This document shows, in pieces, positions 24,812 through 64,000 of a DNA stretch of 64,000 bases. Under the pieces are notes generated by a model that searched no databases, was not told where the DNA came from, and saw only the letters and a program-made list of their open reading frames with translations. Positions within the stretch are counted from its first letter, which is position 1. Each line of letters begins with the position of its first letter. The stretch comes from Naegleria gruberi (Eukaryota). The translations under genes and the position numbers were made by a program. Location: the NCBI GenBank assembly GCA_000004985.1, contig GG738889.1; one strand, written 5' to 3'.

Positions 24812-26455
24812 ATGTCTCGAAAGAAGCAAGCACACAAACGATCATCTCAAAACAAAGAGCAAAAATCAACACACAAACAGCCAAAGAATGAAATTGATCA
24901 GAAGAGAGATTCGACACATAACAATGTGAAGGCACCATATGAGAGAAAAGAAAACAAATTCAATTGTTTACAAGTCCCCGAAGTGGTGATGAATATATTT
25001 TCATTTGCCATTCAACCTGCTGTGTTGTTTAGATATAATTTGGTGTGTCGGGTATGGAATCTAGTGGTAGACAGTGAAAACTTCTATAACAATTATATAA
25101 AGGAGCTGAAACCAGTGGAGGAAATGGATTTGATCGATAGAGTGTTCATGTGGACTGAATATTGCTCAATTTACGAGCCTATTCTGTATGAGCATTATTT
25201 GGATTTTAAGAGAAGAATGATAATAGCGTCTGAGAGTGATAAAAGAGATGTGCATTTAAAGTTAATCTCAAAAGATGAAGTTTTCTCATTCAAACTGAGT
25301 GCTAATAATGATTACACCGTTATTGAAATTGAATCTCTGCAACAACCTTCTTTTAAATTTGTGTCACACAAGTATTCTTATTATAGTCGAGTTGCAGACG
25401 AAATTTTAGAAGATTACTTGACTACCAACGAGAGATACTTGAGCAATTTCAAAGAAGCTCACTTTCCAAATGTTCCCAATAGTGGTTTTTATTCAATTCT
25501 TGAAAGTTTAGTGATGGGTAGATATTGTGAATTATGTTGGTTCTTGAGAGAATTGCAATCCTATACTTCCAGATCCCAAGCTATACAGAGCTATTATAAC
25601 TTCACCAATCCAGATAATAGCATATTGGAAAGAACTTTGGTTTATCAAGACTGGGAACTCACTAGTAAGCTAGTGAATAGAGGCCATTTCATTTCAAAGA
25701 GACAATTGGAAAATATGGTTTGTAGACTTCCGAACTCGAAGCCATTCGTTGCAAGATTTGTTATGACCTATTTGAAATTTAACAAATTGAATATTGAGGA
25801 CTATTTCAAAGCTCCATTAGAAACTCTATTCGATACTGGTACCTTTCATCCTGGAGAATTATGTAAAATTTTCATTGAAGAAGGAGGTGTCAAATGCCCA
25901 GAAGTTCTCATAGATATTGTGGGAGAAATAGGAAGTATGCAAGTCAATTATGAAGCGCTCGACTATCTGAAAAGTGTCTATCCATCACTGATATGTCCAC
26001 TCGATACCAGATCCATTAGAAAACAAAAGAAACCAAATTTACGTTTCATTTTCCAAGATGAACCTCAATATAAGAAAGAATATGATGTTCTATACCTATC
26101 AAAAAATATAGACAATATGTATCAATGTACTTTCCTTCCAAATAGATTTACATCTCTAAATTCTCAAGGACAACATTCCATATTGAAAGAAATGTGCAAT
26201 GGAATATTTGATGCGATTTTGTTTAGACCTGTAACATTTGATAAGGATTTTATAGAGACAATATTGAAAGAAATCAAAGAGGTGGCTCAATCTAAACCAG
26301 TTGCCTTGGTTTGTTTTTATTCGAAGTTGTGTGAACATCGTCAAATGTTGAGAGAATTATTCAAACTATTGAAAGATGTGTATTTAATCATTGAACAAGA
26401 ACCCTATCCAAGCTTTGCCCTTTACAATAACATCTTTCAACAAGACAATTATTGA
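24812..26455 (+). CDS. F-box-like domain protein (hypothetical)
   Basis: The 547-aa ORF starts at a real ATG with a basic N-terminus. It has an F-box-like segment LQVPEVVMNIFSFAIQPAVLFRYNLVCRVWNLVVDSENFYNNYI. The rest is unannotatable from sequence alone. Confidence 0.4.
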   Translation: MSRKKQAHKRSSQNKEQKSTHKQPKNEIDQKRDSTHNNVKAPYERKENKFNCLQVPEVVMNIFSFAIQPAVLFRYNLVCRVWNLVVDSENFYNNYIKELKPVEEMDLIDRVFMWTEYCSIYEPILYEHYLDFKRRMIIASESDKRDVHLKLISKDEVFSFKLSANNDYTVIEIESLQQPSFKFVSHKYSYYSRVADEILEDYLTTNERYLSNFKEAHFPNVPNSGFYSILESLVMGRYCELCWFLRELQSYTSRSQAIQSYYNFTNPDNSILERTLVYQDWELTSKLVNRGHFISKRQLENMVCRLPNSKPFVARFVMTYLKFNKLNIEDYFKAPLETLFDTGTFHPGELCKIFIEEGGVKCPEVLIDIVGEIGSMQVNYEALDYLKSVYPSLICPLDTRSIRKQKKPNLRFIFQDEPQYKKEYDVLYLSKNIDNMYQCTFLPNRFTSLNSQGQHSILKEMCNGIFDAILFRPVTFDKDFIETILKEIKEVAQSKPVALVCFYSKLCEHRQMLRELFKLLKDVYLIIEQEPYPSFALYNNIFQQDNY

Positions 26456-26635: not shown

Positions 26636-28213
26636 ATGGCAAACTACAAACGACTGACCCGTGATGTTGAATACTTCATCAGAAAGGAATATCTGGAAAG
26701 ATTGAAGAAGATCGGAGGTGATTTTTCATTGCCCACACGATCACTAAATAATTCCAATAATTCCTTCATGCTAATTGTGAATCCAATGATCATTTCTCAA
26801 CATGTATTTTCTTACTTTGAAGCTTATTCATCTGATTGGACTCGATTCTTGTTGGTTTGTAAAGAATGGTTTGAATGTATTGTCATGCAGGACGATGGAT
26901 TGTTGTGGAGAGAATTGTACAGAAGCATGCTCAACGGAATGACTAAATATTATAAAGTCCTTTCGCCATTCAATTCATTGAATTATCAATTGGAAAGCTT
27001 TGATTCGATTCGCCAACAAGATGTGAATTCATATCGTGTGAATGAGGAAAATTGTAATGATGAGAAATTTAAGGAAATTCCAGACAAGACATGGAAGGAA
27101 AATTATGACGACATTCTGATTCATAGTTTGGGATTGAAGAAACTCGAGACTGAATTCGATTCCAAGACTACGAGATATATTGCCAGATGCTTCCTAGATG
27201 CTGAAGTCAAGTTTAGAAATAGAGGAGAATTAGCAAGTGTCAGAGAACTCTTCCTACACAAATTCCTATTTGATGCCATCTTTCCAATGATTTTAAAGAA
27301 TCGAGTTGAAAGTCAAAAATATGAAAATCCACTATTAAGAAGTGATTTGAAAATTTTGGAAAAGAAATTGTACTTTGTTGAGACATCATGGTGTATTGAT
27401 ACCCTTTTAAATATTATGGAAGTTAAAAAGGGACTCATGTTGAGAATTTCATACTTGTCGAGTGAGGATGGACTGGTTCACCACCAATTCTATGGAACCA
27501 CAGAGAATGATAGAAATTTGAAATTCTTAATTGATGTAGAGGAGAGCTCGATCATTCTAGATGCCATTCCTGTTGACATTCACCAAAATTTGAGACACAG
27601 CACAGAGTTCGAAACTATTCAATTAGCCACTGGAATGGATTCCATCATTCATGAAGAATTCACTCATTATCTTACAACTTTACAAGAATTACTTGAGAAA
27701 AAGTTTGGTAACATTCACTTGGCTGAATTATTCTGTAAATATTGGTACTGTATCAATCGAATTGAAGACCCAGTTTCGGTCTCTTTCTCTGATGAAAATC
27801 CATTCTGGTTCTTGGATATTCTCTCCAAAAAGGCAAAAACCTCAATCGAGAAGAAATTCTTAGATTCACTCTCAGTTTCATGTGTTTCAATTCTTACAAT
27901 GTGCAGACAAACTCAAAAAGATTGGATATCACTTTCATCCTTTCATCTTGGAATTGAAGATAAGAAGAAGAAGAAGAAGAAACAGGAAACCCAACCTGAA
28001 AGTAAGGATCTTACCCAGGTAAATTCGAAACTCGAAACCTTTAATCTCTCGGTGGACGATTGTTGGAATTGGCGAGGAATTTTGATAAGGCAGAAGGATA
28101 GTAGAGTTGTATTAGAAGGATTAATTACCAGTAGAGAGGGAATCCTTCTCTTTGGCTTGGATGTTTATAATGCTGAACAGGGTTGCTTCTTTACATTTAA
28201 AAAATTAAATTAA
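26636..28213 (+). CDS. F-box-like domain protein (hypothetical), tandem to previous
   Basis: The 525-aa ORF starts at a real ATG. It has an F-box-like segment IISQHVFSYFEAYSSDWTRFLLVCKEWFECIVMQDDGLLWRELY and an internal KKKKKKK run encoded by an (AAG)n microsatellite at ~27961-27985. It is in the same orientation as, and immediately downstream of, the other F-box-like gene. Confidence 0.4.
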   Translation: MANYKRLTRDVEYFIRKEYLERLKKIGGDFSLPTRSLNNSNNSFMLIVNPMIISQHVFSYFEAYSSDWTRFLLVCKEWFECIVMQDDGLLWRELYRSMLNGMTKYYKVLSPFNSLNYQLESFDSIRQQDVNSYRVNEENCNDEKFKEIPDKTWKENYDDILIHSLGLKKLETEFDSKTTRYIARCFLDAEVKFRNRGELASVRELFLHKFLFDAIFPMILKNRVESQKYENPLLRSDLKILEKKLYFVETSWCIDTLLNIMEVKKGLMLRISYLSSEDGLVHHQFYGTTENDRNLKFLIDVEESSIILDAIPVDIHQNLRHSTEFETIQLATGMDSIIHEEFTHYLTTLQELLEKKFGNIHLAELFCKYWYCINRIEDPVSVSFSDENPFWFLDILSKKAKTSIEKKFLDSLSVSCVSILTMCRQTQKDWISLSSFHLGIEDKKKKKKKQETQPESKDLTQVNSKLETFNLSVDDCWNWRGILIRQKDSRVVLEGLITSREGILLFGLDVYNAEQGCFFTFKKLN

Positions 28214-41605: not shown

Positions 41606-44600
41606 TTATTGAAGAAGCAAATCCCATTCTTCAACCTTTTTCAATATCACATCAATAGAAGGTCGTTTACCTGGCTCATGACTCCACATCTGGCGAATCA
41701 CTTTTGTCATTTCAAAAATCAATTCATGGTGAATTACTTGTTCCTTATCAAGAAATTCCTCACACCATTTCTTACACTCTTCACAAGTTGAGAATGGAAT
41801 GATTGGCCTCAAATTCTCCTCACAAACACTCTTATGGAAGTGATACGAACTACTAAATGGTGTTGGTTTGGTGATTTTCAACTTTTTGAGAACGTTTGGA
41901 TCTGAGCTATGGTAAGGTTCAATAATTTCGAATAATAATTGCCACATAATGATGGCCAAACTGTAGATATCAATAGAACGGGCGTCCTCTCTCTCAATTT
42001 CACCAGAGAAAAGCTCCGGAGCCATAAATGAGCTGGTTCCAATCTGACTGGTAATTGCTGAAATTGTGTGAGAACAAAAAGCTCGTCCTAATCCAAAATC
42101 ACACAGTTTGGCAGTTCCACTTTTATCGAGAAGGATATTGGCTGGTTTCAAATCTCTATTCCACAAATGAAAGATTATTTTAGGTGAAATTTAGTATTAA
42201 TACATACCTGTGGACAATGAAATTCGGTTCCAAATGATGCAAATAATAAATTCCACTCACAATGTTCCTCAATATTGCCAATTTTTCATTGAGAGTGCAT
42301 TTGGAATAGCCACGTTGCATGGATGCAATCATTGCCTCTAAACTCTTATCCATGCACTCCATGGCAATGAATCTCTTTGTTGGTGTCGATGAAACACCAT
42401 AGAAATTGATAATATTTGGATGCCTTAATTTGCTTAATAAAATTGCTTCCACTTTGAAATCATTTTCTGAAATACTCAAATTATTCAAATCGAATACCTT
42501 GACTGCAATTGTCATTCCATTGAATTTGGTTGCAAAAACAGAACCCATTCCACCTTCTCCGAGTCTCTTGATTGGTTTGTCCATATTGAGTTGTTCTATT
42601 GGAATGATGAATTTATCTGCCTCTTCCACATAGTAAGAACTAGATCCCATACTTGATTCATAATGGTCCAACAATCTTTCATCTAAAACCAGATCAGTTT
42701 CAGTCAGTTTCTTATTCTTTCGTTTTACAGAAATATACGAAATAAAGATAATGAAACAAATGGCAGTAACGATGAGTAAAACAATGGCAGATGAGAGTCC
42801 CAATCCGAGGGCAATCGTGTTGATACTACAATCCTTTCCAAAGTAGGAAGATTGACAAAGACACTCATCCTGTTTTACACATGTTCCATGTCCTGAGCAA
42901 GCACTTGATCCTGATTGACCAAAACAAATAGCAACCCCACAATCTTTTCCTGTATATCCACTATTACAAACACAATTATCTGGTGCTGTACAAGATCCAT
43001 TTCCATGTGAGCAAACTTCCACAGATGTCTTTGGATAATTAAAGCAAATTGGTAATTGACAGTTATTGCCAAAAAAACCTTGATTGCAAGAACATTGATT
43101 AATATCGAAACAATTTCCGTTTCCACTACACACTGATTCTGAAATATTTGCTGGTATTCCAAAACATATTGGAATACACATTGTCAAATCTCTACTCAAA
43201 AGGTAACCCTCTCTACAAAATGGTGTCAGTTGTCTCACGACATTTTGAGTAGAATCTGATAAGTAAATCGATCCAGAACTAGGGGAAATTGTAAATCCTT
43301 GTGGAGATGCCAAATAATCACTCGTTGCCAAAATTTCATTCAAATCCAATTCTTTCACAGTTGAATTTCCAGCAATTGTGTAAACTAGATTAATTCCATT
43401 TCGTCTACTTATTTTCCTAATCATTGCATTCAGTGAATCAATGAAAATAATATCCACAAAATCAGGAGGTACCAATTTCACTATAGTTGGATAATTAAGC
43501 TCTGCCTGTTCAGCAATTCCATCTATGTATCCAGGATTTCCACTGCCTGCAATGGTGGAAATTGATCCATTCACATGAATCATTCTAATTCTATTATTAT
43601 TCGAATCGGCGAATATAATTTCATTATCCAAATTGATGGCAATTCCGGTTGGCTGAGCCAAAAGTGCAGACTTAGCATCATTTGAATCTCCATTAAAACC
43701 ATATCCCTTTCCTGCAATTGTTGAAATTATTCCATTTCTATCAATCTTTCTAATCTTGTTATTTCCAAAATCGGTCACATAAATTTCTCCATTGAGAGGA
43801 GAAACAGAAACCGCATAAGGTTTAATTGAAGCATAGGATGCCAATCCCTTATCACCTATTCCACCAACTATAGTCTTGACGATACCAGTTTTAAAATTGT
43901 AAAGTTTCACCAAATTACTGTAAGTATCAGCAATTGCCAGATATTGAGTTCCACCACTTGGTAACTGGAGATATCTGACGCTTGAAGGATAGCTGAGCTT
44001 GGATTTGATTCCCAATCCCTCCTCAAATTCTCCACCTCCAATCAATGTATCAGCAATTCCAGTAGAAATCGAGACAGTCCTAATCCTATTATTATTAGTA
44101 TCAGCTATAAACATGGTATTCTGTGAAATGGTTATACTTTTAGGGAGATAGAGTTCCATATTTCTAACAAATCCACCGTCACCTCCATTACCAATTTCAC
44201 CTGTGCCTGCATAGGTATCTGTAACACCATTAATAGTGGCATATCGAATTCTGTGATTACCCGTATCGGCAATGCAAATCATTTGGCTATCTACCACGAC
44301 AACATCCTCAGGAAAGCTCAATTGAGTTTCAGTTGATAAAATATTATCACCATTGAATCCTTCATGTCCAGAACCAGCAACTGTCTTTACCATTTGAGAT
44401 GTACTACTGCCCAAGTAAATTGATCTAATTCTATGATTTCTAGAGTCGGCAACCAGTAAAACTTTATCAGCAGAGTCAATATGAATTCCTTTTGGCTATA
44501 GAGTTTGTAAATATTGCAAATTATCAAAAATTTCAAACTTACACTATTAAATGTTGTGTTCAACAGTGTGTTATCTCCATTAAAACCCTTCACTGTTGGT

Positions 44601-55834: not shown

Positions 55835-56401
55835 ATGCGATGCAAAGCTTCAAGTGAATCCCTAGAAGCGATCCAATCCTTCTTCATATCAAATTCCATC
55901 ATTCATAATAGTAATGAAATTAATCACCAACAACATGAATCAAAAAGTAACAAACAAAAGGAACAAGATTCAAATTCTTCATTGTTTGGAAACTTTTCCT
56001 TGATCGGAAGGGATGTATGGCAAGAGGTGATTATGAAATTTATTAATCCGATAGAATTGATGCATATGAGAAGAGTTTCAAGTGAATTTAATTTTTGGAT
56101 TGAATGTTTGGATGATGAATTGTATTGGAAAGAGTGCCAGATGAAGAATATGAGAGGAATGATCAAGGGAATGATCATTGATCCGATATCGGAAAAGTAT
56201 TTTCTCAGATATTGGAAAATATTGATGGAAAAAACACGGAATAATACTGATGAAAAGTTTTCCTATAGAAAAATTACCTTAGATATTTGCAAAGATTTAC
56301 AAATGGAAAGGAGGATTAATGTAAATTATAGAATTTATTTGAATAAGGGATTAATTGATGAGAAACATTTGAAAATTCCACAAAAGGATGAGTCAATTTA
56401 G
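55835..56401 (+). CDS. F-box protein
   Basis: The ORF starts at a real ATG. The F-box is VWQEVIMKFINPIELMHMRRVSSEFNFWIECLDDELYWKECQ. It ends at a TAG (56399..56401) that is in frame with the next ORF. Confidence 0.5.
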   Translation: MRCKASSESLEAIQSFFISNSIIHNSNEINHQQHESKSNKQKEQDSNSSLFGNFSLIGRDVWQEVIMKFINPIELMHMRRVSSEFNFWIECLDDELYWKECQMKNMRGMIKGMIIDPISEKYFLRYWKILMEKTRNNTDEKFSYRKITLDICKDLQMERRINVNYRIYLNKGLIDEKHLKIPQKDESI

Positions 56402-56404
56402 AAT

Positions 56405-57016
56405 GTGAGAACTGCTATTATTATTGAGGGAAAACTAGCAACAACAAATGCACTCTTGTTCACTTATCATGATGGCATATTTCCATATGATTACATTCCA
56501 ACTATTTTCTCTAATACAGATATTAAGGGATTGGTCCTCAAATCGGAGAGTTCACAAGCCAAGATTACATATTCCAATTTTCCAATGATGTGTTTCGAGA
56601 GTGTGAGTGCACATTTAACATTTTACAATAATGCAGTTGTTTTAATTTTTTTTAACAAGTTATTGAGATCGAGTTGGAATGAAGTTGCCCATTCTATCAT
56701 TCCTTCACTTTCTATAAAACCTGGATGTATTTATATTCTGATAGGACTAAATTGGGGTGCACTATCTCAGAATAGCTCAATGTATAATTTGAAGTATACA
56801 TGCGAGCATTATTCGGATGAATTTGTGGCAAATAGTGAAATTTTGGAATATATTCATGGAAAGAAGTTTCTTGCATATGTTGATTTGAAACCAAGAAGTG
56901 AGAAGGAAATATTTACATTTATGGATTCGATTGTTAAATTGGTCGTTATGAAAGATAAGGGATATAATTTATTTGAAAAGGATTTTCTTGCCAAAGTTGA
57001 CGATATTTCTCGATAG
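56405..57016 (+). CDS. Rho-family-derived pseudo-GTPase domain (no ATG; in frame with upstream F-box ORF across a single TAG)
   Basis: The 203 codons are open in an AT-rich genome. The residue immediately after the TAG is N, and the next codon, GTG (56405), occupies the position of the Rho initiator Met. Then comes [36 protein letters not shown], versus Rho/Rac (M)[38 protein letters not shown]. Later blocks are [17 protein letters not shown] (compare VFLICFSLVSPASFENV) and YILIGLNWG (compare ILVGTKLDL). The P-loop GxxxxGKT, DTAGQE and NKxD are all destroyed, so the domain cannot bind GTP. Confidence 0.5.
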   Translation: [203 protein letters not shown]

Positions 57017-57294: not shown

Positions 57295-59262
57295 ATGGGA
57301 CAATCACTCCAGAGTCAATTAGTGAGCAGTTGCCAATCGGATCAAGTCGAATTGTGCAAAAGTATTCTCAATCAAGATTTAAATCTATTCAATTATGAAG
57401 ATGATAAGGTAAGTATTAGTGCCTGCCTTCGGAATTGGTTATTAATAATTAATACATTAAATAGTCGATGGTTTGTATTGAAACTCTAAATTAACGTTTA
57501 AACTTTGGATGAATATATTGAATAATATTGAATAATTGGAATATGAAGAATATATTATTGATGTGTGCCAAGTATGAATCGGTTGGAATTATCAAAATGT
57601 TATTTTCCGATTTTAAAACACAAGTGATGGCAATTATCGATAAGACTGATGTAGGTTTAACCTCTGTTGAAATTACGATTATATCATCATTATTGATTTT
57701 AATAGTGGCCTTCGAATTATGTAGGTTTATAAAATTGTTGAGGATTATTGGAAATATTGTTGTGATGAATGATGGAATTATTATATGAAATATTGGAAAA
57801 ATTAGACGGCTTTGCATTGGGCTTGTTATAATCAAAATTTGGAGATTGTGAAAATTCTGGTGGAGAATGGAGCCAACACAACACTTGAAAATGTAGGTTA
57901 TTGTTAAAGGTTATTTCAAAAACGAAACTTGAATAGGCGGATGGTCATAAAGCAATTGATTTGTGTGAGAAAAATTCATCAGTTTATTCATATTTAGCAA
58001 GTGATAGAGCTTCATTGTTTGATTGGATGAAAAAGACTCTTCAACCAAACAAGTACAATCATTCGAATTATAAACCATCGGGAAATGAGGACTATGTCAC
58101 AACAGATACTGATGATGGGTTAGTATTTATTTATTCGAATGTATTATTCACACATGTGAAATCTTAGTTTTGTGGAAATTGAAAAGGTGGAGGTTATTGA
58201 AACGGAGAAAACTCAACGAGAGGAATCAAAGCCACTCACAAGCAAATTACAAATTTTGGAAAATATTACAAAGAGCTTTGCCAAAACTTTTAAAATTGAA
58301 TCGACACTTTCACATGACATTACATCGAGTGTTAGATTTTCCAAAGTTAATGACATGGAATTAATGGATCCTATTGCCTCGGGAAGTGAAGGAAAGGTAT
58401 TCTATGGAAGGTGGAAAAAGCAATCAGTTGCCATCAAGGTCATTGAAGTGCCCTACCTCACTGAGGGGCTTGTGGAAAATTTAAATTTAATTCTCAACAT
58501 TTCACACAAGTATTGTGTCTCTCACCATTCATTTTCCTATGATGAGGAAAATTGTAAATTGTACATAATTATGGAACTTATGAATACCAACCTGTTCAAG
58601 TATATTTTCAGACAAAGGAAAGAATTGACTCTAAAAGAAAAGGTTCATGCATTACATAGTATTTCTATTGGAATGTTCTATTTGCACGATATGAATCCTC
58701 CTGGTAGGTTAGGAATTTCATTAGATTGTTAACAATATTATTTTACATAATATTGAAAATAGTTTTAAATTTGGATTTGAAATTGGAAAATATCTTGATT
58801 AATATTGGAAATGATGGAAGACCTTCAGATATCAAAATTTGCGACTTTGGATTGTCAATGTTTAAGAGCAAGGCAGAATTCATTAAATTGACAGATCCAG
58901 TGGGTACTTTGAGAGCCATTGCCCCAGAAATTCTTCATAATTTCACATGTTCTGAAAAATCAGATGTCTACTCATTTGGAATTTTAATGTATGAATTATT
59001 ATTCGGAAGAGTTGCTTATTATGACTATTTGGAAAATGCAAATGAAAATGATGGAGATGACTTGTTGTTGAATATTGTCAATAATCACAAACGACCAACT
59101 ATTCCATCTGACTATACAATGCCAACTCTCAATCAAGAACGAACAAGTGTGGAAACCTTAATAGATATGATGCAGAAATGTTGGGTGGAAGATCCAAAAC
59201 AACGACCAACCTTTGACCAAATTACTACAGAATTGGAAAAGATTGTTTTGCCGTGCAAATAA
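57295..59262 (+). CDS. Ankyrin-repeat protein kinase (TKL-like) with N-terminal MGxxxS myristoylation motif; 6 exons
   Basis: The exons are 57295..57408 (MGQSLQSQLVSS…NYEDDK|GTAAGT), ~57549..57650 (ANK-like NILLMCAKYESVGIIKMLF…; acceptor uncertain), 57806..57892 (TALHWACYNQNLEIVKILVENGANTTLEN), 57937..58118, 58168..58703 (GSEGKVFYG, AIKVI, …YLHDMNPP) and 58763..59262 (VLNLDLKLENILI, DFGLS, APE, stop). The introns are 43-140 nt with GTAAGT, GTAGGT or GTTAGT donors. All joins remove in-frame stops of the ORF-track pieces and preserve frame. The catalytic loop reads NLDLK instead of HRDLK. Confidence 0.62.
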
Positions 59263-59522: not shown

Positions 59523-62500
59523 TTATTCTCTTTTAAATGTAATGGTGCCCATTGTTCTATCCAACATTTCAATTCTTTGGTCTTCATAGTCAGCACTACA
59601 CACAGATCTCAATTCATCTCTATGATCCAAAGTTGGCACAATACTCACCATTCTAGTAACATTTTGAACTTTGTATCTTCTAGAAATTATAATTAAGGCA
59701 ATAATGGAACTAACACAGACAAACAAGACGGCAACATAACCACCAATGACAGAACCAACAATAATACCAACCAAGTTGATATACGTAACTGGAATACTAC
59801 AATCCTCTCCAAGATAACCCAAATCGCATTTACAAACACCACTCAAACACTTGCCGTTCAATGAACAGAAGTTTGGACATACCAAAACTGCTGTGCATGA
59901 ACCATTATTGCTGCATGAATCTTGAGCAACGGCTGTAGCAGAAGCCATAGCATATTCAACCAAACCAGTTGACAAGACATCGAACATACATGATTCGTAG
60001 AATGATGCTGTCAATCCCAAACTATTACAAGCCTTTTCAGCCAAAGCTTGTAGAGTAGCATTTTCCGAAGAGGCCTTCATAATAGGCTTAAAGTCAAGAA
60101 CATTAAGGTCTTCATATTGAGATCCAACAGTATAAGTAAAGAAGGATTCATTCTTTGAAATTCTCCAACTTTCACCAAAAACTTGGTGAATTTGTTCAGC
60201 AGTAGGTGAAGGAAGAACAGTACCATCTCTCAATGTAAATTCATTGTCCTTATTTCCATCGAGTGTACCATACAAACCTCCAAGTTCAGTACCAGTAAAG
60301 TTAACATCCTTTGATGGAGCAAATGAAACAGCCAACCATCCAAGTCCATCATTTCTCAATTTGATTTGACCCTTGAAATCACCACTATACTTGACAGTAA
60401 TGGATTTGTAATAAAACTTCAAACCATTAACCATGTAATAACTTGATGTATCATCTTCTTGGGTAATTGTGGCACCTCCATTCAAAACAAGAATTGGGGT
60501 ATCTGGTTCCTTATACACAAGTTGTGATTCTGTGATATTGGCAACTTGGTTAGTGTCTGGATCGACTTGACCCTTAATTTGTTCTACTAACTTTTGAAGA
60601 TCCTTTGGAATTTCAAACTTGGTATCAGCTTCAACAGGTTGAACATTGACTTTTGTTTCATTGAGATAAACTTGAACATCATTGACAAGAACCTTAACAC
60701 CAGTCTTACCATCAGACAAGATTGAAACCTTATCCGATCCGCTCATGAATGAAATACCCTTCATACATGATGTCTTTGAATCTGCTGTACATTTCATCAA
60801 TCTACCTTGTAATCCCAATTCATTAGACTTGTACAAGTAGAATTCACCAATTGAATTGAATGTATATTCTGCAGCATCAACAGTTCTAAGGTGAATATCA
60901 CCAAAGGCCAAAACCTTATTGACCAAATCAAATATGTGAACAAGACTACAATCTGATCCTCCAAAACCTGGGAAACAAGCACAAGTATTTGGACCAACAC
61001 AAGTACCTCTTCCTCCACACCAATTTCTATGGACACAATGGAATGATGAACAGGTTTCAGTGTACCAACCCCATCTACAGACACATTCATTTGGTCCAAC
61101 ACATTTACCTCTCTTAGCACCACCACAACTTGATCTATTAGCACACAAATCAGTATCAATGACAGCAACACAATTAGATCCAGGAGGAACATAGGTAGCC
61201 TCTTCAATATAGACAGTTGCTTCCTTCTTGACTGGAAGAGTGACAATATTATTCTTACAATCATAAGTAGTTAGACCATCTGTGAAATTGGATGGTGAGA
61301 GATTTCTAGTTGGTGAACCATCAGTAAATTCAATCTTAACTTTCAATGGTCCCCATTTGACAAATCCAATGGAAACACTCAAAGTTGTGGAACCTTGCCA
61401 ATCGAGTCTTATCTTTTCAGGTGTACCAACAACACCAAGCCAATCAATGGAATATCTATAGATACCATAATCCATGTAAAGTGCTCTGTACCACCATTCA
61501 CCCCAATATTGCAATCTACCATTCAACTTTTCACTATATCCATTAGTACTATTCACTCTAGCTCTATCAATACCATTGGTAATGGCTGGAGTTGTAATTT
61601 CAAATCTCTTGAAATTCACAGATTCGTCACAAATGAAAGCATTCCATTCCTTAACATAGGCACACAAAATTGGATCGACCATGATCATAGTACTTGGAAT
61701 AATTCTAGCACCAGCTCTTCTGATTTTAGAAGGTACAGTAATATTTCTAGATAAAGTGCCGTCAGTATCAATAATAACTTCATGTCTATAAACATCAGAC
61801 AATGATGATTCCTTAGAAGCCAAACCAGCAAGTAAATACATAACGTTAGCATTGTGGAAATACATTCTATTGGTAACATAATCACCTTGATTCATTGAAG
61901 CCCAATCATCATTTCTAAGATCAATGGATGATAGCTTTCTTTCACAATTATCAACAAAATCAAAGAATTCCAAATCTTGAAGAAGTAAAGTATTACCATC
62001 ACGATGATATAAAACACCGATAAATGGATCATTTCTACTGTATGAAGGAAGTGATCTATAATATGGTGAGGATGGATTCTTGTAATCAGTTCCACATCTA
62101 TAACATTGACCATCATTACAATTATTTGGATTACCCTTATTTTGTGTAAAACCAATAAAGATGGCACCACTAACAACAATTGGACTCATAATGATATTAA
62201 GGACAGTATAACTAACTGGATTGTCTGCAAAGATACTTCCCTTCAAATTGAGTTTTCCTTGAACGTGGGAGTATTGACCATTTTGTCTATTCTTCCAAAT
62301 GTTCATATTCTCAAATACTGGTTCAGACCAAGGATTCTTATCAGTACCACAATTAGTTGAATCATACATTTCCATCTTTGGATTTGTGCATGTGTAAAAG
62401 TTTGGATACAACATCATACCATGTTGATTATTACTGTGGGCAGTGTTGTTAACAAATTGTCCCCAGTACCATCTATTAGGTCTAATATATGGAGTTTGAG

Positions 62501-64000
62501 AAGCACCTGTAGCATAGGAATCCAAATGATACCAGAAACCAAAAGCATCACTTCCAGCTGCACGATTTCCAATGAAAATATTGTTTGGATTGGTAATGTA
62601 GAAGGTGGCTGGATTATTGTCTTGATTGTCTGGAAGCATGACAGATCTTGAATCTGGAATGACCTTTGAAAGTATACCAAGATTATTTTCGAAAATGTTA
62701 TACTGTTCAGCACCATCTTCAAGGAAGAAAGTATGTCCATAAATATTGAAAGCAACAACTCCTTCAACGTGTAAATAATTGGTTCCTTGCAATGCAACAG
62801 CTCTTTGATAGGTATCATAGACTGAAACCTTGTGGACATAGGAAGTATTGGCATCACCAAACAATTGGAAGTAAATTGGATAACGACCTGGAATACCAGC
62901 TTGACCCATTCGTGTGAATTCAACATTATCAAGTCTGACATATTGAGCAGTTCTGAGGAAGGCAGTGTGACCACCAAACATTGAATCTTCACTTGTTGCC
63001 AAATCACCTCTAATCTTAATATTGTGCGATAACAAACCAACTTCACCACGTTCATCAAATGTAACAACAGTTCCATTAGCCTTTTGATAGTATTCTGTAT
63101 TGGCATAGTGACCATAGACGAGTGGTTTAACAAATCCAAAACATGTACTATTGAAACGGACTGAAATTGTTCTTCTTTCAGCTTGATTGTGATAGTAATC
63201 AGTGGAAGCTAGAACAATTTCATCACCAACTTGCCATTCAGTTGGTTGTTTAAGATGAACGGAAGTATCACCAACTTGAGCTGATTTACCCAACAAAGTC
63301 CAAGAAACTTCATGTTTCTTACCATGCAAGCTCAAAGCACCTCCACTGGTTACAATGATATTCTTAACACCAAATCCAATTAAAGTTCTATTGAGATTTC
63401 TTTCACCGTGAAGTGTAATTGTGGCATTGTGTTGATGAGGGCTGGTTTCATTACCTATTTGGAGAGAACCAGTAACAATCATCGATTTAAAGTGCATTTC
63501 CAAATCAAGCTCATCACTGAAAACTAAACAACCAAATACATGAACAACGTCCAATTTTGGAGGAATGACATCCAAAATAACAGTATAGTTTTCTGGAACA
63601 ACCAAAATTCTTTCGGGTTCAAGATAGAGAGAATCATCCTCTTCTTCTTCATCAATATAGTTGTTGGTAGAATTGGTTGTAGAGTTGGTGGAATTGTGTG
63701 AAATGAGAGTATTATTAACAAGAATGAATGTTGAATTATCGCCATAGCAATTTGTAACATTGAAAATGGTTCTATTAAGGGAACAAACTGTTGAGGTATT
63801 TACAGTAATTTGATTACAGACAACACTGGTAACATTCTCTGAAATGTAGGTAGTATTGCTGCAGTTTGAATTAGTTACTGAAATACACATGGCATCTCCA
63901 TTGGAACAAGTTGAACAATTAGCACTATCACAAGTGAATGAATCAATATGAGTGAAGATGACACAATCAGTATGGTTTGTATAGTAGAATCCATCGAATG
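59523..64000 (-). CDS. Large type I membrane glycoprotein with G8 domain / right-handed beta-helix (CEMIP/TMEM2/fibrocystin-like), EGF-like modules and VWD-like domain; 5' end outside window
   Basis: The G8-like block is PERILVVPENYTVILDVIPPKLDVVHVFGCLVFSDELDLEMHFKSMIVTGSLQIGNETSP…ATITLHGE. Behind it are many beta-helix-like repeats rich in N-glycosylation sites. The EGF-like clusters include CGGAKRGKCVGPNECVCRWGWYTETC and CGGRGTCVGPNTCACFPGFGGSDC. The VWD-like block is FGDIHLRTVDAAEYTFNSIGEFYLYKS…LMKC. A C-terminal EGF (CSLNGKCLSGVCKCDLGYLGEDC) is followed by a TM (LVGIIVGSVIGGYVAVLFVCVSSIIALIII) and a short tail. The frame stays open upstream of the first ATG (63890) to the window edge with no signal peptide, so the true start lies beyond 64000. 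Confidence 0.55.
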   Translation of the reverse strand, partial: FDGFYYTNHTDCVIFTHIDSFTCDSANCSTCSNGDAMCISVTNSNCSNTTYISENVTSVVCNQITVNTSTVCSLNRTIFNVTNCYGDNSTFILVNNTLISHNSTNSTTNSTNNYIDEEEEDDSLYLEPERILVVPENYTVILDVIPPKLDVVHVFGCLVFSDELDLEMHFKSMIVTGSLQIGNETSPHQHNATITLHGERNLNRTLIGFGVKNIIVTSGGALSLHGKKHEVSWTLLGKSAQVGDTSVHLKQPTEWQVGDEIVLASTDYYHNQAERRTISVRFNSTCFGFVKPLVYGHYANTEYYQKANGTVVTFDERGEVGLLSHNIKIRGDLATSEDSMFGGHTAFLRTAQYVRLDNVEFTRMGQAGIPGRYPIYFQLFGDANTSYVHKVSVYDTYQRAVALQGTNYLHVEGVVAFNIYGHTFFLEDGAEQYNIFENNLGILSKVIPDSRSVMLPDNQDNNPATFYITNPNNIFIGNRAAGSDAFGFWYHLDSYATGASQTPYIRPNRWYWGQFVNNTAHSNNQHGMMLYPNFYTCTNPKMEMYDSTNCGTDKNPWSEPVFENMNIWKNRQNGQYSHVQGKLNLKGSIFADNPVSYTVLNIIMSPIVVSGAIFIGFTQNKGNPNNCNDGQCYRCGTDYKNPSSPYYRSLPSYSRNDPFIGVLYHRDGNTLLLQDLEFFDFVDNCERKLSSIDLRNDDWASMNQGDYVTNRMYFHNANVMYLLAGLASKESSLSDVYRHEVIIDTDGTLSRNITVPSKIRRAGARIIPSTMIMVDPILCAYVKEWNAFICDESVNFKRFEITTPAITNGIDRARVNSTNGYSEKLNGRLQYWGEWWYRALYMDYGIYRYSIDWLGVVGTPEKIRLDWQGSTTLSVSIGFVKWGPLKVKIEFTDGSPTRNLSPSNFTDGLTTYDCKNNIVTLPVKKEATVYIEEATYVPPGSNCVAVIDTDLCANRSSCGGAKRGKCVGPNECVCRWGWYTETCSSFHCVHRNWCGGRGTCVGPNTCACFPGFGGSDCSLVHIFDLVNKVLAFGDIHLRTVDAAEYTFNSIGEFYLYKSNELGLQGRLMKCTADSKTSCMKGISFMSGSDKVSILSDGKTGVKVLVNDVQVYLNETKVNVQPVEADTKFEIPKDLQKLVEQIKGQVDPDTNQVANITESQLVYKEPDTPILVLNGGATITQEDDTSSYYMVNGLKFYYKSITVKYSGDFKGQIKLRNDGLGWLAVSFAPSKDVNFTGTELGGLYGTLDGNKDNEFTLRDGTVLPSPTAEQIHQVFGESWRISKNESFFTYTVGSQYEDLNVLDFKPIMKASSENATLQALAEKACNSLGLTASFYESCMFDVLSTGLVEYAMASATAVAQDSCSNNGSCTAVLVCPNFCSLNGKCLSGVCKCDLGYLGEDCSIPVTYINLVGIIVGSVIGGYVAVLFVCVSSIIALIIISRRYKVQNVTRMVSIVPTLDHRDELRSVCSADYEDQRIEMLDRTMGTITFKRE

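What the first reader, a model, noticed from the sequence alone, without database searches (positions are those of the whole stretch)
57295..59262. Intron-dense ANK-repeat kinase with a myristoylation motif and a non-canonical NLD catalytic loop
Six exons, five introns in 2 kb, rebuild a protein of about 506 aa from six ORF-track scraps. It has an MGQSLQS N-terminus (Gly2 and Ser6 fit the N-myristoylation consensus). Three or four ankyrin repeats are followed by a kinase with Gly-loop GSEGKV, VAIK Lys, DFG and APE. The catalytic loop is VLNLDLKLEN rather than HRDLK. The catalytic Asp is retained, but the His and Arg are replaced. This may be an unusual active kinase that is not regulated through an RD pocket, or a pseudokinase. 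The ANK plus kinase layout resembles the ILK / ankyrin-repeat-kinase family, where ILK itself is a pseudokinase.
Basis: partly seen in the sequence, partly recalled or inferred. Interest (0 to 1): 0.5.

Follow-up and report, generated by a model that had tools for sequence, protein, structure and literature searches.

The report
Unannotated Naegleria ankyrin-repeat protein kinase gene
This is a real but so far unannotated Naegleria gruberi gene for an ankyrin-repeat protein kinase, one of a small amoeba-specific family with an unusual catalytic centre; it is an ordinary kind of signalling protein with some uncommon details.

Summary
The gene is real. The window is Naegleria gruberi. The locus 57295-59262 (+) encodes an N-terminal ankyrin-repeat (ANK) module, a disordered linker and a protein kinase of the TKL (tyrosine-kinase-like) group.

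Full-length orthologues exist in N. lovaniensis, N. fowleri, Willaertia magna and two environmental contigs (40-49% identity). No N. gruberi protein for this locus is in the public sets searched.

The gene has 8 exons and encodes 513 aa, not 6 exons and 506 aa.

NLD is present. Its Leu is a family trait, because all five orthologues read HLD, so this is a non-RD kinase family. Only the His-to-Asn change (CAT to AAT) is specific to N. gruberi.

The family also lacks the canonical alpha-C Glu (N/H/Q instead). It has an invariant Glu at the tip of the Gly-rich loop (GGEG).

The beta-3 Lys, catalytic Asp and Asn, DFG and APE are invariant, and N. gruberi shows no extra decay.

MGQ is conserved, but residue 6 is Gln, not Ser, so the myristoylation consensus is imperfect here.

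It is not an ILK relative (21% identity). Catalytic competence is undecided. Interest is modest.

The parts
57295..57408 (+). Exon 1 (114 nt, phase 0). Encodes MGQSLQSQ... up to ...NYEDDK: the N-terminal helix and the first ANK-like unit.
   Evidence: It holds the first in-frame ATG, preceded by an A-rich context as in the orthologues. The donor is gtaagt. The exon end falls at the same alignment column and phase in all six species.
57465..57470 (+). Micro-exon, 6 nt, TCGATG = Ser-Met. Probable.
   Evidence: It is the only in-frame AG..GT candidate in intron 1. A 2-codon micro-exon lies at the same place in L003 (TCAAGG), N. fowleri-like L005 (TCAAGG), L004 (ATGAGA) and W. magna (DR). In N. 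lovaniensis these codons are fused to the next exon. Against it: the donor gtttgt is weak, and the Pfam Ank_2 score drops from 72.9 to 47.8 bits when it is included.
57549..57650 (+). Exon 3 (102 nt). Encodes NILLMCAKYESVGIIKMLFSDFKTQVMAIIDKTD, the second ANK repeat.
   Evidence: It is 102 nt long in five of the six species, 108 nt in N. lovaniensis where the two micro-exon codons are fused on. The end phase and column are the same in all six.
57706..57720 (+). Micro-exon, 15 nt, TGGCCTTCGAATTAT = WPSNY. It encodes the loop tip between ANK repeats.
   Evidence: It is flanked by taatag and gtaggttta, and that donor is identical to the donor of the preceding intron. Homologous micro-exons are WAKY (N. 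lovaniensis annotation and N. fowleri-like locus), WYHN (L003), LHQN (L004) and FF+GN (W. magna). Including it raises Ank_2 from 69.3 to 72.9 bits.
57806..57892 (+). Exon 5 (87 nt). Encodes TALHWACYNQNLEIVKILVENGANTTLEN, the canonical ANK repeat.
   Evidence: It is 87 nt with the same boundaries in all six species. Pfam Ank scores 37 bits.
57937..58118 (+). Exon 6 (182 nt, ends in phase 2). Encodes the capping ANK half-repeat and the start of the linker.
   Evidence: The phase-2 intron at DDG|FVEIE is shared by all six species.
58168..58703 (+). Exon 7 (536 nt). Encodes the linker, the kinase N-lobe (ASGSEGKV, VAIK Lys259, alpha-C with Glu272-Asn273), the hinge, and alpha-D/E up to DMNPP.
   Evidence: Pfam Pkinase match and residue map. 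The donor is gtaggttag.
58704..58762 (+). Intron 7 (59 nt, phase 1), found only in N. gruberi. It lies directly before the catalytic loop.
   Evidence: Reading through it without splicing meets a stop codon. Removing it restores gap-free colinearity with the orthologues (DMNPP-VLNLDLK against DMKPP-ILHLDLK).
58763..59262 (+). Exon 8 (500 nt, including the stop). Encodes the catalytic loop VLNLDLKLEN, DFG, the activation segment, APE and the C-lobe.
58768..58770 (+). Codon AAT = Asn350, at the position of the His of HRD.
   Evidence: All five orthologues have CAT (His) here. The difference is a single C-to-A change.

Best explanation
The locus is a functional, spliced Naegleria gruberi gene of 8 exons and 513 aa.

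**Anatomy (shown).** It encodes a lineage-restricted signalling kinase with these parts:
- an N-terminal Met-Gly start
- three to four ankyrin repeats, which would serve as a protein-docking module
- a disordered linker of about 100 residues
- a C-terminal Ser/Thr-type kinase domain of the TKL group.

It belongs to a small orthologous family known only from Naegleria, Willaertia and two environmental heterolobosean-like contigs.

**Mechanism (inferred).**
- The family is 'non-RD': HLD replaces HRD. Its activity should therefore not depend on a phosphorylated activation loop docking onto the HRD arginine. Control would instead come from localisation and ANK-mediated partners.
- The conserved Gly2 may carry myristate for membrane tethering.
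- The family keeps the beta-3 Lys, catalytic Asp and Asn, DFG and APE. It lacks the canonical alpha-C Glu and carries an invariant Glu at the tip of the Gly-rich loop.
- I read it as a catalytically competent but atypical kinase.
- In N. gruberi alone, the regulatory-spine His of the catalytic loop has become Asn. This probably lowers turnover but does not make the gene dispensable.
For: **Gene and family (shown)**
- Exact matches of six other window ORFs to N. gruberi RefSeq proteins identify the organism.
- Full-length orthologues were found or rebuilt.
- Five intron positions, with their phases, are shared by all six species.
- Domains come from Pfam. The AlphaFold2 model of the N. lovaniensis orthologue has pLDDT 81, with confident ANK and kinase domains and a disordered linker.
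- TKL placement: the best solved relatives by sequence are RIPK3, CTR1, BMX and ZAK. By fold they are CTR1, Roco4, RIPK2/3, TNNI3K and IRAK4.

**Catalytic residues (shown)**
- K259, D352, N357, D375 (DFG), E403 (APE), D415 and R495 are invariant in all six.
- HLD occurs in five members and NLD here.
- LDLKxEN and GT..APE are the Ser/Thr-type signatures (established knowledge).

**No decay in N. gruberi (shown)**
- In the kinase domain, N. gruberi has 6 unique departures at columns where the other five species agree. L003, L004 and W. magna have 8-10.

**N-terminus (shown)**
- MGQ is conserved in all six N-termini.
Against: - The canonical alpha-C Glu column is E in 86 of 94 aligned kinases. 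In the family it is N/H/H/H/Q (Asn273 here).
- The aromatic residue at the Gly-loop tip is replaced by Glu only in this family. By position this resembles an inhibitory phospho-Tyr mimic; this point rests on my own knowledge of CDK Tyr15.
- The His of HxD is nearly universal in kinases. Replacing it in Aurora A abolished activity (H254R, H254F) or impaired it (H254Y) (PMC4650784). None of the 94 aligned kinases has Asn there. Among 76 metagenomic xLD kinases, one has it.
- Residue 6 is Gln, which does not fit the PROSITE myristoylation pattern (recalled from memory).
- No expression data were available.
- The gene is absent from the public N. gruberi protein set.
Confidence: 0.55

Rival explanations
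1. The family, or at least the N. gruberi member, is a pseudokinase. It would bind nucleotide and partners through the ANK repeats and a kinase-fold scaffold but would not transfer phosphate.
For: - There is no canonical alpha-C Glu in any member.
- A Glu sits at the tip of the Gly-rich loop.
- HRD Arg is lost family-wide, and the regulatory-spine His is also lost in N. gruberi.
- Mutations of the HxD His inactivated or impaired Aurora A (PMC4650784).
- ANK + degenerate-kinase scaffolds exist. ILK is one, and plant ILK1 is described as an atypical pseudokinase in the abstract of PMC9403797.
Against: - The three residues used to call pseudokinases (VAIK Lys, catalytic Asp, DFG Asp), plus the catalytic Asn, are invariant across six taxa that share only about 40% identity. 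That is unexpected if catalysis had been given up.
- Non-RD kinases with HLD are active enzymes. Mos and Myt1 are examples (my own knowledge, not tested here).
Confidence: 0.32
2. The Asn is a base-calling or assembly error. The true N. gruberi protein would read HLD like its orthologues.
For: AAT differs from the orthologous CAT by a single base. No second N. gruberi sequence of this locus was found in any collection.
Against: A finished reference assembly has a per-base error rate far below the rate of real substitutions seen here. There are six N. gruberi-specific changes at otherwise invariant kinase columns. The surrounding sequence is clean and in frame.
Confidence: 0.05
3. The locus is an unexpressed or decaying gene relic in N. 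gruberi, which would explain its absence from the annotation.
For: It is not in the public N. gruberi protein set. It has lost a near-universal catalytic-loop residue.
Against: - The 513-codon frame is intact across eight exons.
- All seven introns have GT-AG boundaries.
- There is no excess of unique substitutions.
- Micro-exons and high intron density are a sufficient reason for a gene finder to miss it.
Confidence: 0.04
4. It is the Naegleria orthologue of integrin-linked kinase (ILK).
For: It has the same N-terminal ANK + C-terminal kinase-fold layout. BLASTP aligns the two end to end.
Against: - Identity is only 21% and the score 57 bits.
- ILK's catalytic loop (PRHALNSRSVMI) and ADVK lack the Asp, Asn and DFG that are kept here.
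- ILK is absent from the ten best PDB sequence hits and the top 50 fold hits. RIPK, CTR1, ZAK, Roco4 and TNNI3K all rank above it.
Confidence: 0.02

Closest known systems
Hypothetical proteins C9374_003538 (Naegleria lovaniensis, P0001), ABK040_008939 (Willaertia magna, P0002) and FDP41_003983 (N. fowleri, XP_044561401.1, a truncated model)
   Same: They are orthologues. They share the full-length layout, the MGQ start, the ANK repeats, the linker motif DDGFVEIE, the GGEG Gly-loop, the missing alpha-C Glu and xLDLKxEN. Intron positions are shared, including the micro-exons.
   Different: They have His (HLD) where N. gruberi has Asn. Overall identity is 40-49%. N. gruberi has its own intron before the catalytic loop. 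It lacks the introns at SFLE|FMKK (also absent in W. magna) and DVYSF|G.
Non-RD protein kinases (for example Mos and Myt1 with HLD, and plant and animal innate-immunity non-RD kinases)
   Same: The Arg of HRD is replaced by a non-charged residue while the catalytic Asp is kept. This implies independence from activation-loop phosphate docking.
   Different: There is no specific sequence relationship. Those kinases keep the alpha-C Glu and the HxD His. The comparison with Mos and Myt1 rests on my own knowledge and was not tested here.
ANK-repeat TKL kinases: TNNI3K, plant ANK-kinases ('ILK1-6', Raf-like group C1), and Entamoeba and Dictyostelium ANK-TKLs
   Same: N-terminal ANK repeats are followed by a TKL-type kinase domain. 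TNNI3K is among the top fold matches. Entamoeba ANK-kinases P0013 and P0019 are sequence hits with the same Pfam layout.
   Different: Identity is only 22-26%. Those proteins have HRD and the alpha-C Glu. The shared architecture may be convergent.
RIPK3 and CTR1 kinase domains (best solved relatives)
   Same: They give the highest sequence scores, about 90 bits. The alpha-E to catalytic-loop segments are similar (GMFYLHDQNPVLLHRDLKPSNVLL against GMFYLHDMNPPVLNLDLKLENILI). CTR1 is the top fold match.
   Different: They have no ANK repeats, a canonical HRD, and the alpha-C Glu is present.
Integrin-linked kinase (ILK)
   Same: ANK + kinase-fold layout.
   Different: Identity is 21%. ILK has lost the catalytic Asp, Asn and DFG, which this protein keeps.

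Membership tests
Eukaryotic protein kinase superfamily (Pfam PF00069 / PF07714) | Significant match to the kinase-domain profile over its full length | tested here: met
   Pkinase scores 138.5 bits (cut-off 31.7), profile positions 4-258 of 263. PK_Tyr_Ser-Thr scores 132.2 bits.
TKL group of protein kinases | Closest characterised relatives are TKL kinases; Ser/Thr-type catalytic loop (D-L-K-x-x-N) | tested here: met
   Best PDB sequence hits are RIPK3, CTR1, BMX and ZAK. Best fold hits are CTR1, Roco4, RIPK2/3, TNNI3K and IRAK4, alongside some tyrosine kinases. No formal kinome classifier was available, so the sub-family is unassigned.
Ankyrin-repeat proteins | Tandem 33-residue helix-loop-helix repeats recognised by ANK profiles | tested here: met
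   Ank_2 scores 72.9 bits over residues 12-105 and Ank scores 37.8 bits. The AlphaFold2 model of the orthologue shows four helix pairs within residues 18-134.
Naegleria/Willaertia ANK-kinase orthologous family | Full-length colinearity, shared intron positions, shared GGEG / no alpha-C Glu / xLD signature | tested here: met
   Identity is 40-49% over about 500 columns. Five intron positions are shared by all six species. The signature residues are shown.
Non-RD kinases | Arg preceding the catalytic Asp is replaced by an uncharged residue while the Asp is kept | tested here: met
   Leu351-Asp352. Leu is found at this column in all six family members, against Arg in 80 of 94 aligned kinases.
Pseudokinases (standard sequence criterion) | Loss of at least one of: VAIK Lys, catalytic-loop Asp, DFG Asp | tested here: not met
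   K259, D352 and D375 are all present and invariant in the family.
Pseudokinases (functional definition) | No phosphotransfer activity | not testable with these tools
   Enzyme assays are needed. The missing alpha-C Glu, the Gly-loop Glu and His350Asn leave the question open.
Integrin-linked kinase (ILK) family | Specific sequence relationship to ILK | tested here: not met
   The human ILK sequence was recalled from memory and validated against PDB entries 3KMU and 3F6Q. It aligns at 21% identity and 57 bits. It is not among the ten best PDB sequence hits or the top 50 fold hits.
Integrin-linked kinase (ILK) family | Degenerate catalytic loop and DFG (no catalytic Asp or Asn) | tested here: not met
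   The window protein has LDLKLEN and DFG where ILK has RHALNSRS and DVK (alignment).
N-myristoylated proteins | Gly at position 2 after the initiator Met | tested here: met
   MGQ is present in all six orthologues.
N-myristoylated proteins | Small uncharged residue (S/T/A/G/C/N) at position 6 (PROSITE PS00008, recalled from memory) | tested here: not met
   N. gruberi has Gln6 and L003 has Glu6. The other four have T, A, T and S.
N-myristoylated proteins | Actual attachment of myristate | not testable with these tools
   Metabolic labelling or mass spectrometry is needed.

The most novel reading that the evidence does not exclude
The Naegleria/Willaertia family could be a previously undescribed catalytic variant of the kinase fold. 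In this reading, the acidic partner of the beta-3 Lys has moved from helix alpha-C to the tip of the Gly-rich loop (the invariant GGEG). This would be a counterpart of the relocated Lys in WNK kinases. It would be combined with RD-independence, and N. gruberi would additionally tolerate Asn in place of the regulatory-spine His.
Probability: 0.1. Interest if true: 0.6.

Novelty: new member of a known kind. Interest (0 to 1): 0.27.

Why it matters
- **Annotation.** The work adds a missing gene to the N. gruberi model-organism annotation. It also shows that 6-15 nt micro-exons exist and are conserved in Heterolobosea, which explains why gene finders missed or truncated this family. The N. fowleri model is cut short at an intron, and the environmental copies appear only as fragmentary gene calls.
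- **Kinase biology.** The family is a natural experiment. Six orthologues share a non-RD catalytic loop, lack the alpha-C Glu and carry a Gly-loop Glu. One of them also replaces the near-universal HxD His with Asn. Simple enzyme assays on the HLD and NLD forms would show how much of the canonical catalytic core is really needed.
- **Limits.** Lineage-specific atypical kinases are common in protists, and nothing here points to a new kind of system.

Tried and rejected
- The spliced N. gruberi protein could not be handed to the representative search. I did not try it for structure prediction, which has the same rule. I used the orthologues instead.
- **Listing annotated genes at the locus.** Exact look-ups of five neighbouring window ORFs all failed (and part). 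The 'unannotated' statement therefore rests on the two exhaustive protein searches.
- **Metagenome DNA scan.** I scanned for L[HNYD]LDLKxEN[IV]L. No further family member or N. gruberi-like copy was found.
- **AFDB fold search.** It was unavailable.
- **Literature.** Searches found nothing on micro-exons in Naegleria and no systematic Naegleria kinome analysis. Two papers consulted on myristoylation gave nothing decisive.
- **Synteny.** The N. lovaniensis and N. fowleri-like loci have an EF-hand gene upstream and a V-SNARE gene downstream. The Pfam scans of the two upstream ORFs and the one downstream ORF flanking the gene in the window show neither domain. No direct sequence comparison of the neighbours was run.
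- **Paralogue in the window.** The only other kinase, at 41606-44414 (-), is an unrelated NHL/EGF receptor-like kinase.
Full report
**1. Where the window comes from**

Six long ORFs elsewhere in the window are exact matches to Naegleria gruberi RefSeq/GenBank proteins on one 348,446-bp scaffold, for example XP_002673719.1 and XP_002673640.1. The window has about 34% G+C, and most of its long ORFs are uninterrupted.

**2. The observation**

- 57295-57408
- 57549-57650
- 57806-57892
- 57937-58118
- 58168-58703
- 58763-59262

They give an open 506-aa frame with GT-AG introns of 44-155 nt. The introns have 20-27% G+C, lower than all but one of the exons (29-38%).

Pfam finds Ank_2 (residues 13-100, E 2.7e-11) and Pkinase (228-495, E 3.5e-40).

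**3. Orthologues**

A search of 5.8 billion proteins gave two full-length relatives:
- N. lovaniensis C9374_003538 (P0001, 538 aa, E 1.5e-135)
- Willaertia magna ABK040_008939 (P0002, 510 aa, E 8.5e-88)

All other hits were generic kinases at 33% identity or less over the kinase domain (a few short partial hits reached 40%).

An exhaustive HMMER search of 1.84 billion cluster representatives, using a profile of these two, added only three clear family members:
- P0130, whose cluster contains N. fowleri XP_044561401.1, a truncated model
- P0144, from a Logan assembly of SRR15442820
- P0169, from an ENA metagenome

I fetched their loci (L003, L004, L005) and rebuilt full-length genes of 516, 518 and 526 codons.

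Neither search returned any N. gruberi protein. The gene therefore appears to be missing from the public N. gruberi protein set.

**4. Corrected gene model**

The NCBI models of the two annotated orthologues contain micro-exons. N. lovaniensis has a 12-nt exon encoding WAKY. W. magna has four 6-nt exons encoding DR, FF, GN and NE. All have canonical AG and GTAAGT-type flanks.

The same two sites hold micro-exons in the three loci I rebuilt:
- site 1: SR, MR, SR
- site 2: WYHN, LHQN, WAKY

The window has matching candidates at exactly these sites:
- 57465-57470, TCGATG = SM. This is the only in-frame AG..GT candidate in intron 1.
- 57706-57720, TGGCCTTCGAATTAT = WPSNY. Its donor gtaggttta is identical to that of the preceding intron.

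With them the introns become 56, 78, 55, 85, 44, 49 and 59 nt, instead of including two outliers of 140 and 155 nt. The protein becomes 513 aa.

WPSNY raises the Ank_2 score from 69.3 to 72.9 bits. SM lowers it to 47.8 bits. I therefore rate WPSNY as very likely and SM as probable, the latter resting on positional homology in five of six species.

Mapped onto the six-way alignment, five intron positions with their phases are shared by all six species. A sixth is shared by five. This strongly supports the model, including exon 1 and its MG start.

The intron directly before the catalytic loop (58704-58762, phase 1) is unique to N. gruberi. Removing it gives gap-free colinearity with the orthologues, and reading through it meets a stop.

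**5. The catalytic centre**

All five orthologues read PPILHLDLK(L/M/T)EN, so Arg-to-Leu is a family trait. Only the His-to-Asn change is specific to N. gruberi. The codon is AAT against CAT in all five orthologues, a single C-to-A change.

In a 94-kinase alignment containing five family members:

| Column | Across the 94 kinases | In the family |
|---|---|---|
| HxD His | H 88, Y 6, never N | H in the five aligned; N. gruberi has N |
| HRD Arg | R 80; the 5 L are all family members | L |
| alpha-C Glu | E 86 | H/N/H/H/Q; N. gruberi Asn273, with Glu272 one residue earlier |
| Gly-loop tip (usually aromatic, e.g. F/Y) | E in 5 of 94, all of them family members | E (GGEG; ASGSEG in N. gruberi) |

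The nine-residue spacing from the alpha-C Glu to the H-x-N motif (established knowledge) points to the same alpha-C assignment. So does the three-residue gap that phmmer opens opposite the CTR1 Glu.

K259, D352, N357, D375-F-G, E403 (APE), D415 and R495 are invariant in all six members. By the usual three-residue sequence criterion this is not a pseudokinase.

N. gruberi shows no accelerated decay. In the kinase domain it has 6 unique departures at columns where the other five species agree, against 8-10 for the similarly distant L003, L004 and W. magna. Apart from H350N and a Gly-to-Ser change in the Gly-rich loop, its departures are conservative.

NLD is rare but not unique. Among 76 metagenomic kinases matching x-L-D-L-K-x-E-N, 71 had H, 4 had Y and 1 had N.

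Published work on Aurora A shows that the HxD His is close to universal in the human kinome. H254R and H254F abolish activity, and H254Y impairs it (PMC4650784). Asn was not tested there.

**6. N-terminus**

All six proteins start with MGQ, preceded by an A-rich context.

The PROSITE myristoylation pattern, recalled from memory, wants S/T/A/G/C/N at position 6. This is met in four orthologues (T, A, T, S) but not in N. gruberi (Q) or L003 (E). The conserved Gly2 argues for a functional N-terminus. Myristoylation is plausible but not predicted by the standard pattern here.

**7. Fold and relatives**

An AlphaFold2 model of the N. lovaniensis orthologue has mean pLDDT 81. It shows:
- a confident ANK module (residues 1-146, four helix pairs)
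- a confident kinase domain (250-538)
- a disordered linker (146-244)

The best solved relatives by sequence are RIPK3 (E 1.3e-24), CTR1, BMX and ZAK. By fold they are CTR1, Roco4, RIPK2/3, TNNI3K, IRAK4 and some tyrosine kinases. These are TKL-group kinases together with some tyrosine kinases, so I place the domain in the TKL group.

I recalled the human ILK sequence and validated it against PDB entries 3KMU and 3F6Q. It aligns at only 21% identity and 57 bits. At the aligned positions ILK lacks the catalytic Asp, Asn and DFG. ILK is not in the top 50 fold hits. The ILK resemblance is one of layout only.

**8. Interpretation**

Shown:
- a real gene, orthologous across Naegleria and Willaertia
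- ANK + TKL kinase architecture
- a non-RD family, with no alpha-C Glu and with a Gly-loop Glu
- His-to-Asn only in N. gruberi

Inferred:
- The strict conservation of Lys, Asp, Asn and DFG across about 40% identity indicates continuing selection for nucleotide or metal handling, and most simply for catalysis. I favour an atypical but competent kinase (0.55) over a pure pseudokinase scaffold (0.32).
- Non-RD status implies regulation by localisation and partners rather than by activation-loop phosphate.
- Asn350 probably lowers turnover.

A sequencing error (0.05), a gene relic (0.04) and ILK orthology (0.02) are unlikely.

**9. Novelty and verdict**

The kind of protein, an ANK-repeat TKL kinase that is non-RD, is known, and orthologues are already deposited as hypothetical proteins. 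What is new is threefold:
- the N. gruberi gene itself
- its correct 8-exon structure with micro-exons
- the recognition of a family-wide unusual catalytic signature, plus the N. gruberi His-to-Asn change

This is a new member of a known kind and of modest interest. The most novel reading not excluded is that the Gly-loop Glu functionally replaces the alpha-C Glu.

Noticed in passing
window 57465-57470 and 57706-57720; L001 8364-8375; L002 8205-8210, 8403-8408, 8464-8469, 8652-8657; L003 964-969, 1166-1177; L004 758-763, 939-950; L005 3298-3303, 3549-3560: Micro-exons of 6-15 nt with canonical splice signals are conserved at the same two sites of this gene in Naegleria, Willaertia and two environmental relatives. 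They encode the loop tips between ankyrin repeats. A full-text search found no paper on micro-exons in Naegleria.
   Followed up: partly
window 57295-59262: The gene has no counterpart in the public N. gruberi protein set, although other ORFs of the window are exact RefSeq matches. The N. fowleri RefSeq model XP_044561401.1 (359 aa) is a truncated version of the orthologue. The fragmentary metagenome gene calls end at the DVYSF|G intron.
   Followed up: partly
window 41606-44414 (-): A second, unrelated kinase gene. It has NHL repeats, EGF-like domains and a Pkinase domain split between two ORFs (42180-44414 and 41606-42166), so it looks like a receptor-like kinase with an intron in the kinase domain.
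   Followed up: no
window 59523-63890 (-): A single 1455-codon ORF with G8, CEMIP beta-helix, EGF/teneurin-like, VWD and RGM_C-like matches and a C-terminal hydrophobic stretch. It resembles a CEMIP/TMEM2-like surface protein. This exact ORF is not in the protein collection, so the public model differs.
   Followed up: no
window 56405-57016 (+) and 55835-56401 (+): Two adjacent ORFs just upstream of the kinase gene, separated by one stop codon. The second looks Rho-GTPase-like by eye (..FPYDYIPTIFSN..) with a degenerate P-loop, but it has no Pfam match even at E <= 1.
   Followed up: no
window 24812-26455 and 26636-28213 (+): Two tandem F-box-like ORFs of 547 and 525 aa. The 525-aa ORF is present as such in an ENA assembly. 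It clusters at 90% identity with an 1188-aa N. gruberi model, XP_002673641.1. That model may fuse neighbouring genes; this was not checked.
   Followed up: no
L017 9427-9458 (-): One metagenomic kinase with TLNLDLKPENVL, that is, Asn at the HxD-His position as in the N. gruberi protein. It was the only such case among 76 xLD kinases recovered by the pattern scan.
   Followed up: no
L001 and L005 flanks: The N. lovaniensis and N. fowleri-like orthologues share neighbours: an EF-hand_7 gene directly upstream and a V-SNARE gene downstream. Pfam scans of the three ORFs flanking the N. gruberi gene show neither domain, and the W. magna locus has different neighbours. No direct sequence comparison of neighbours was made.
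   Followed up: partly
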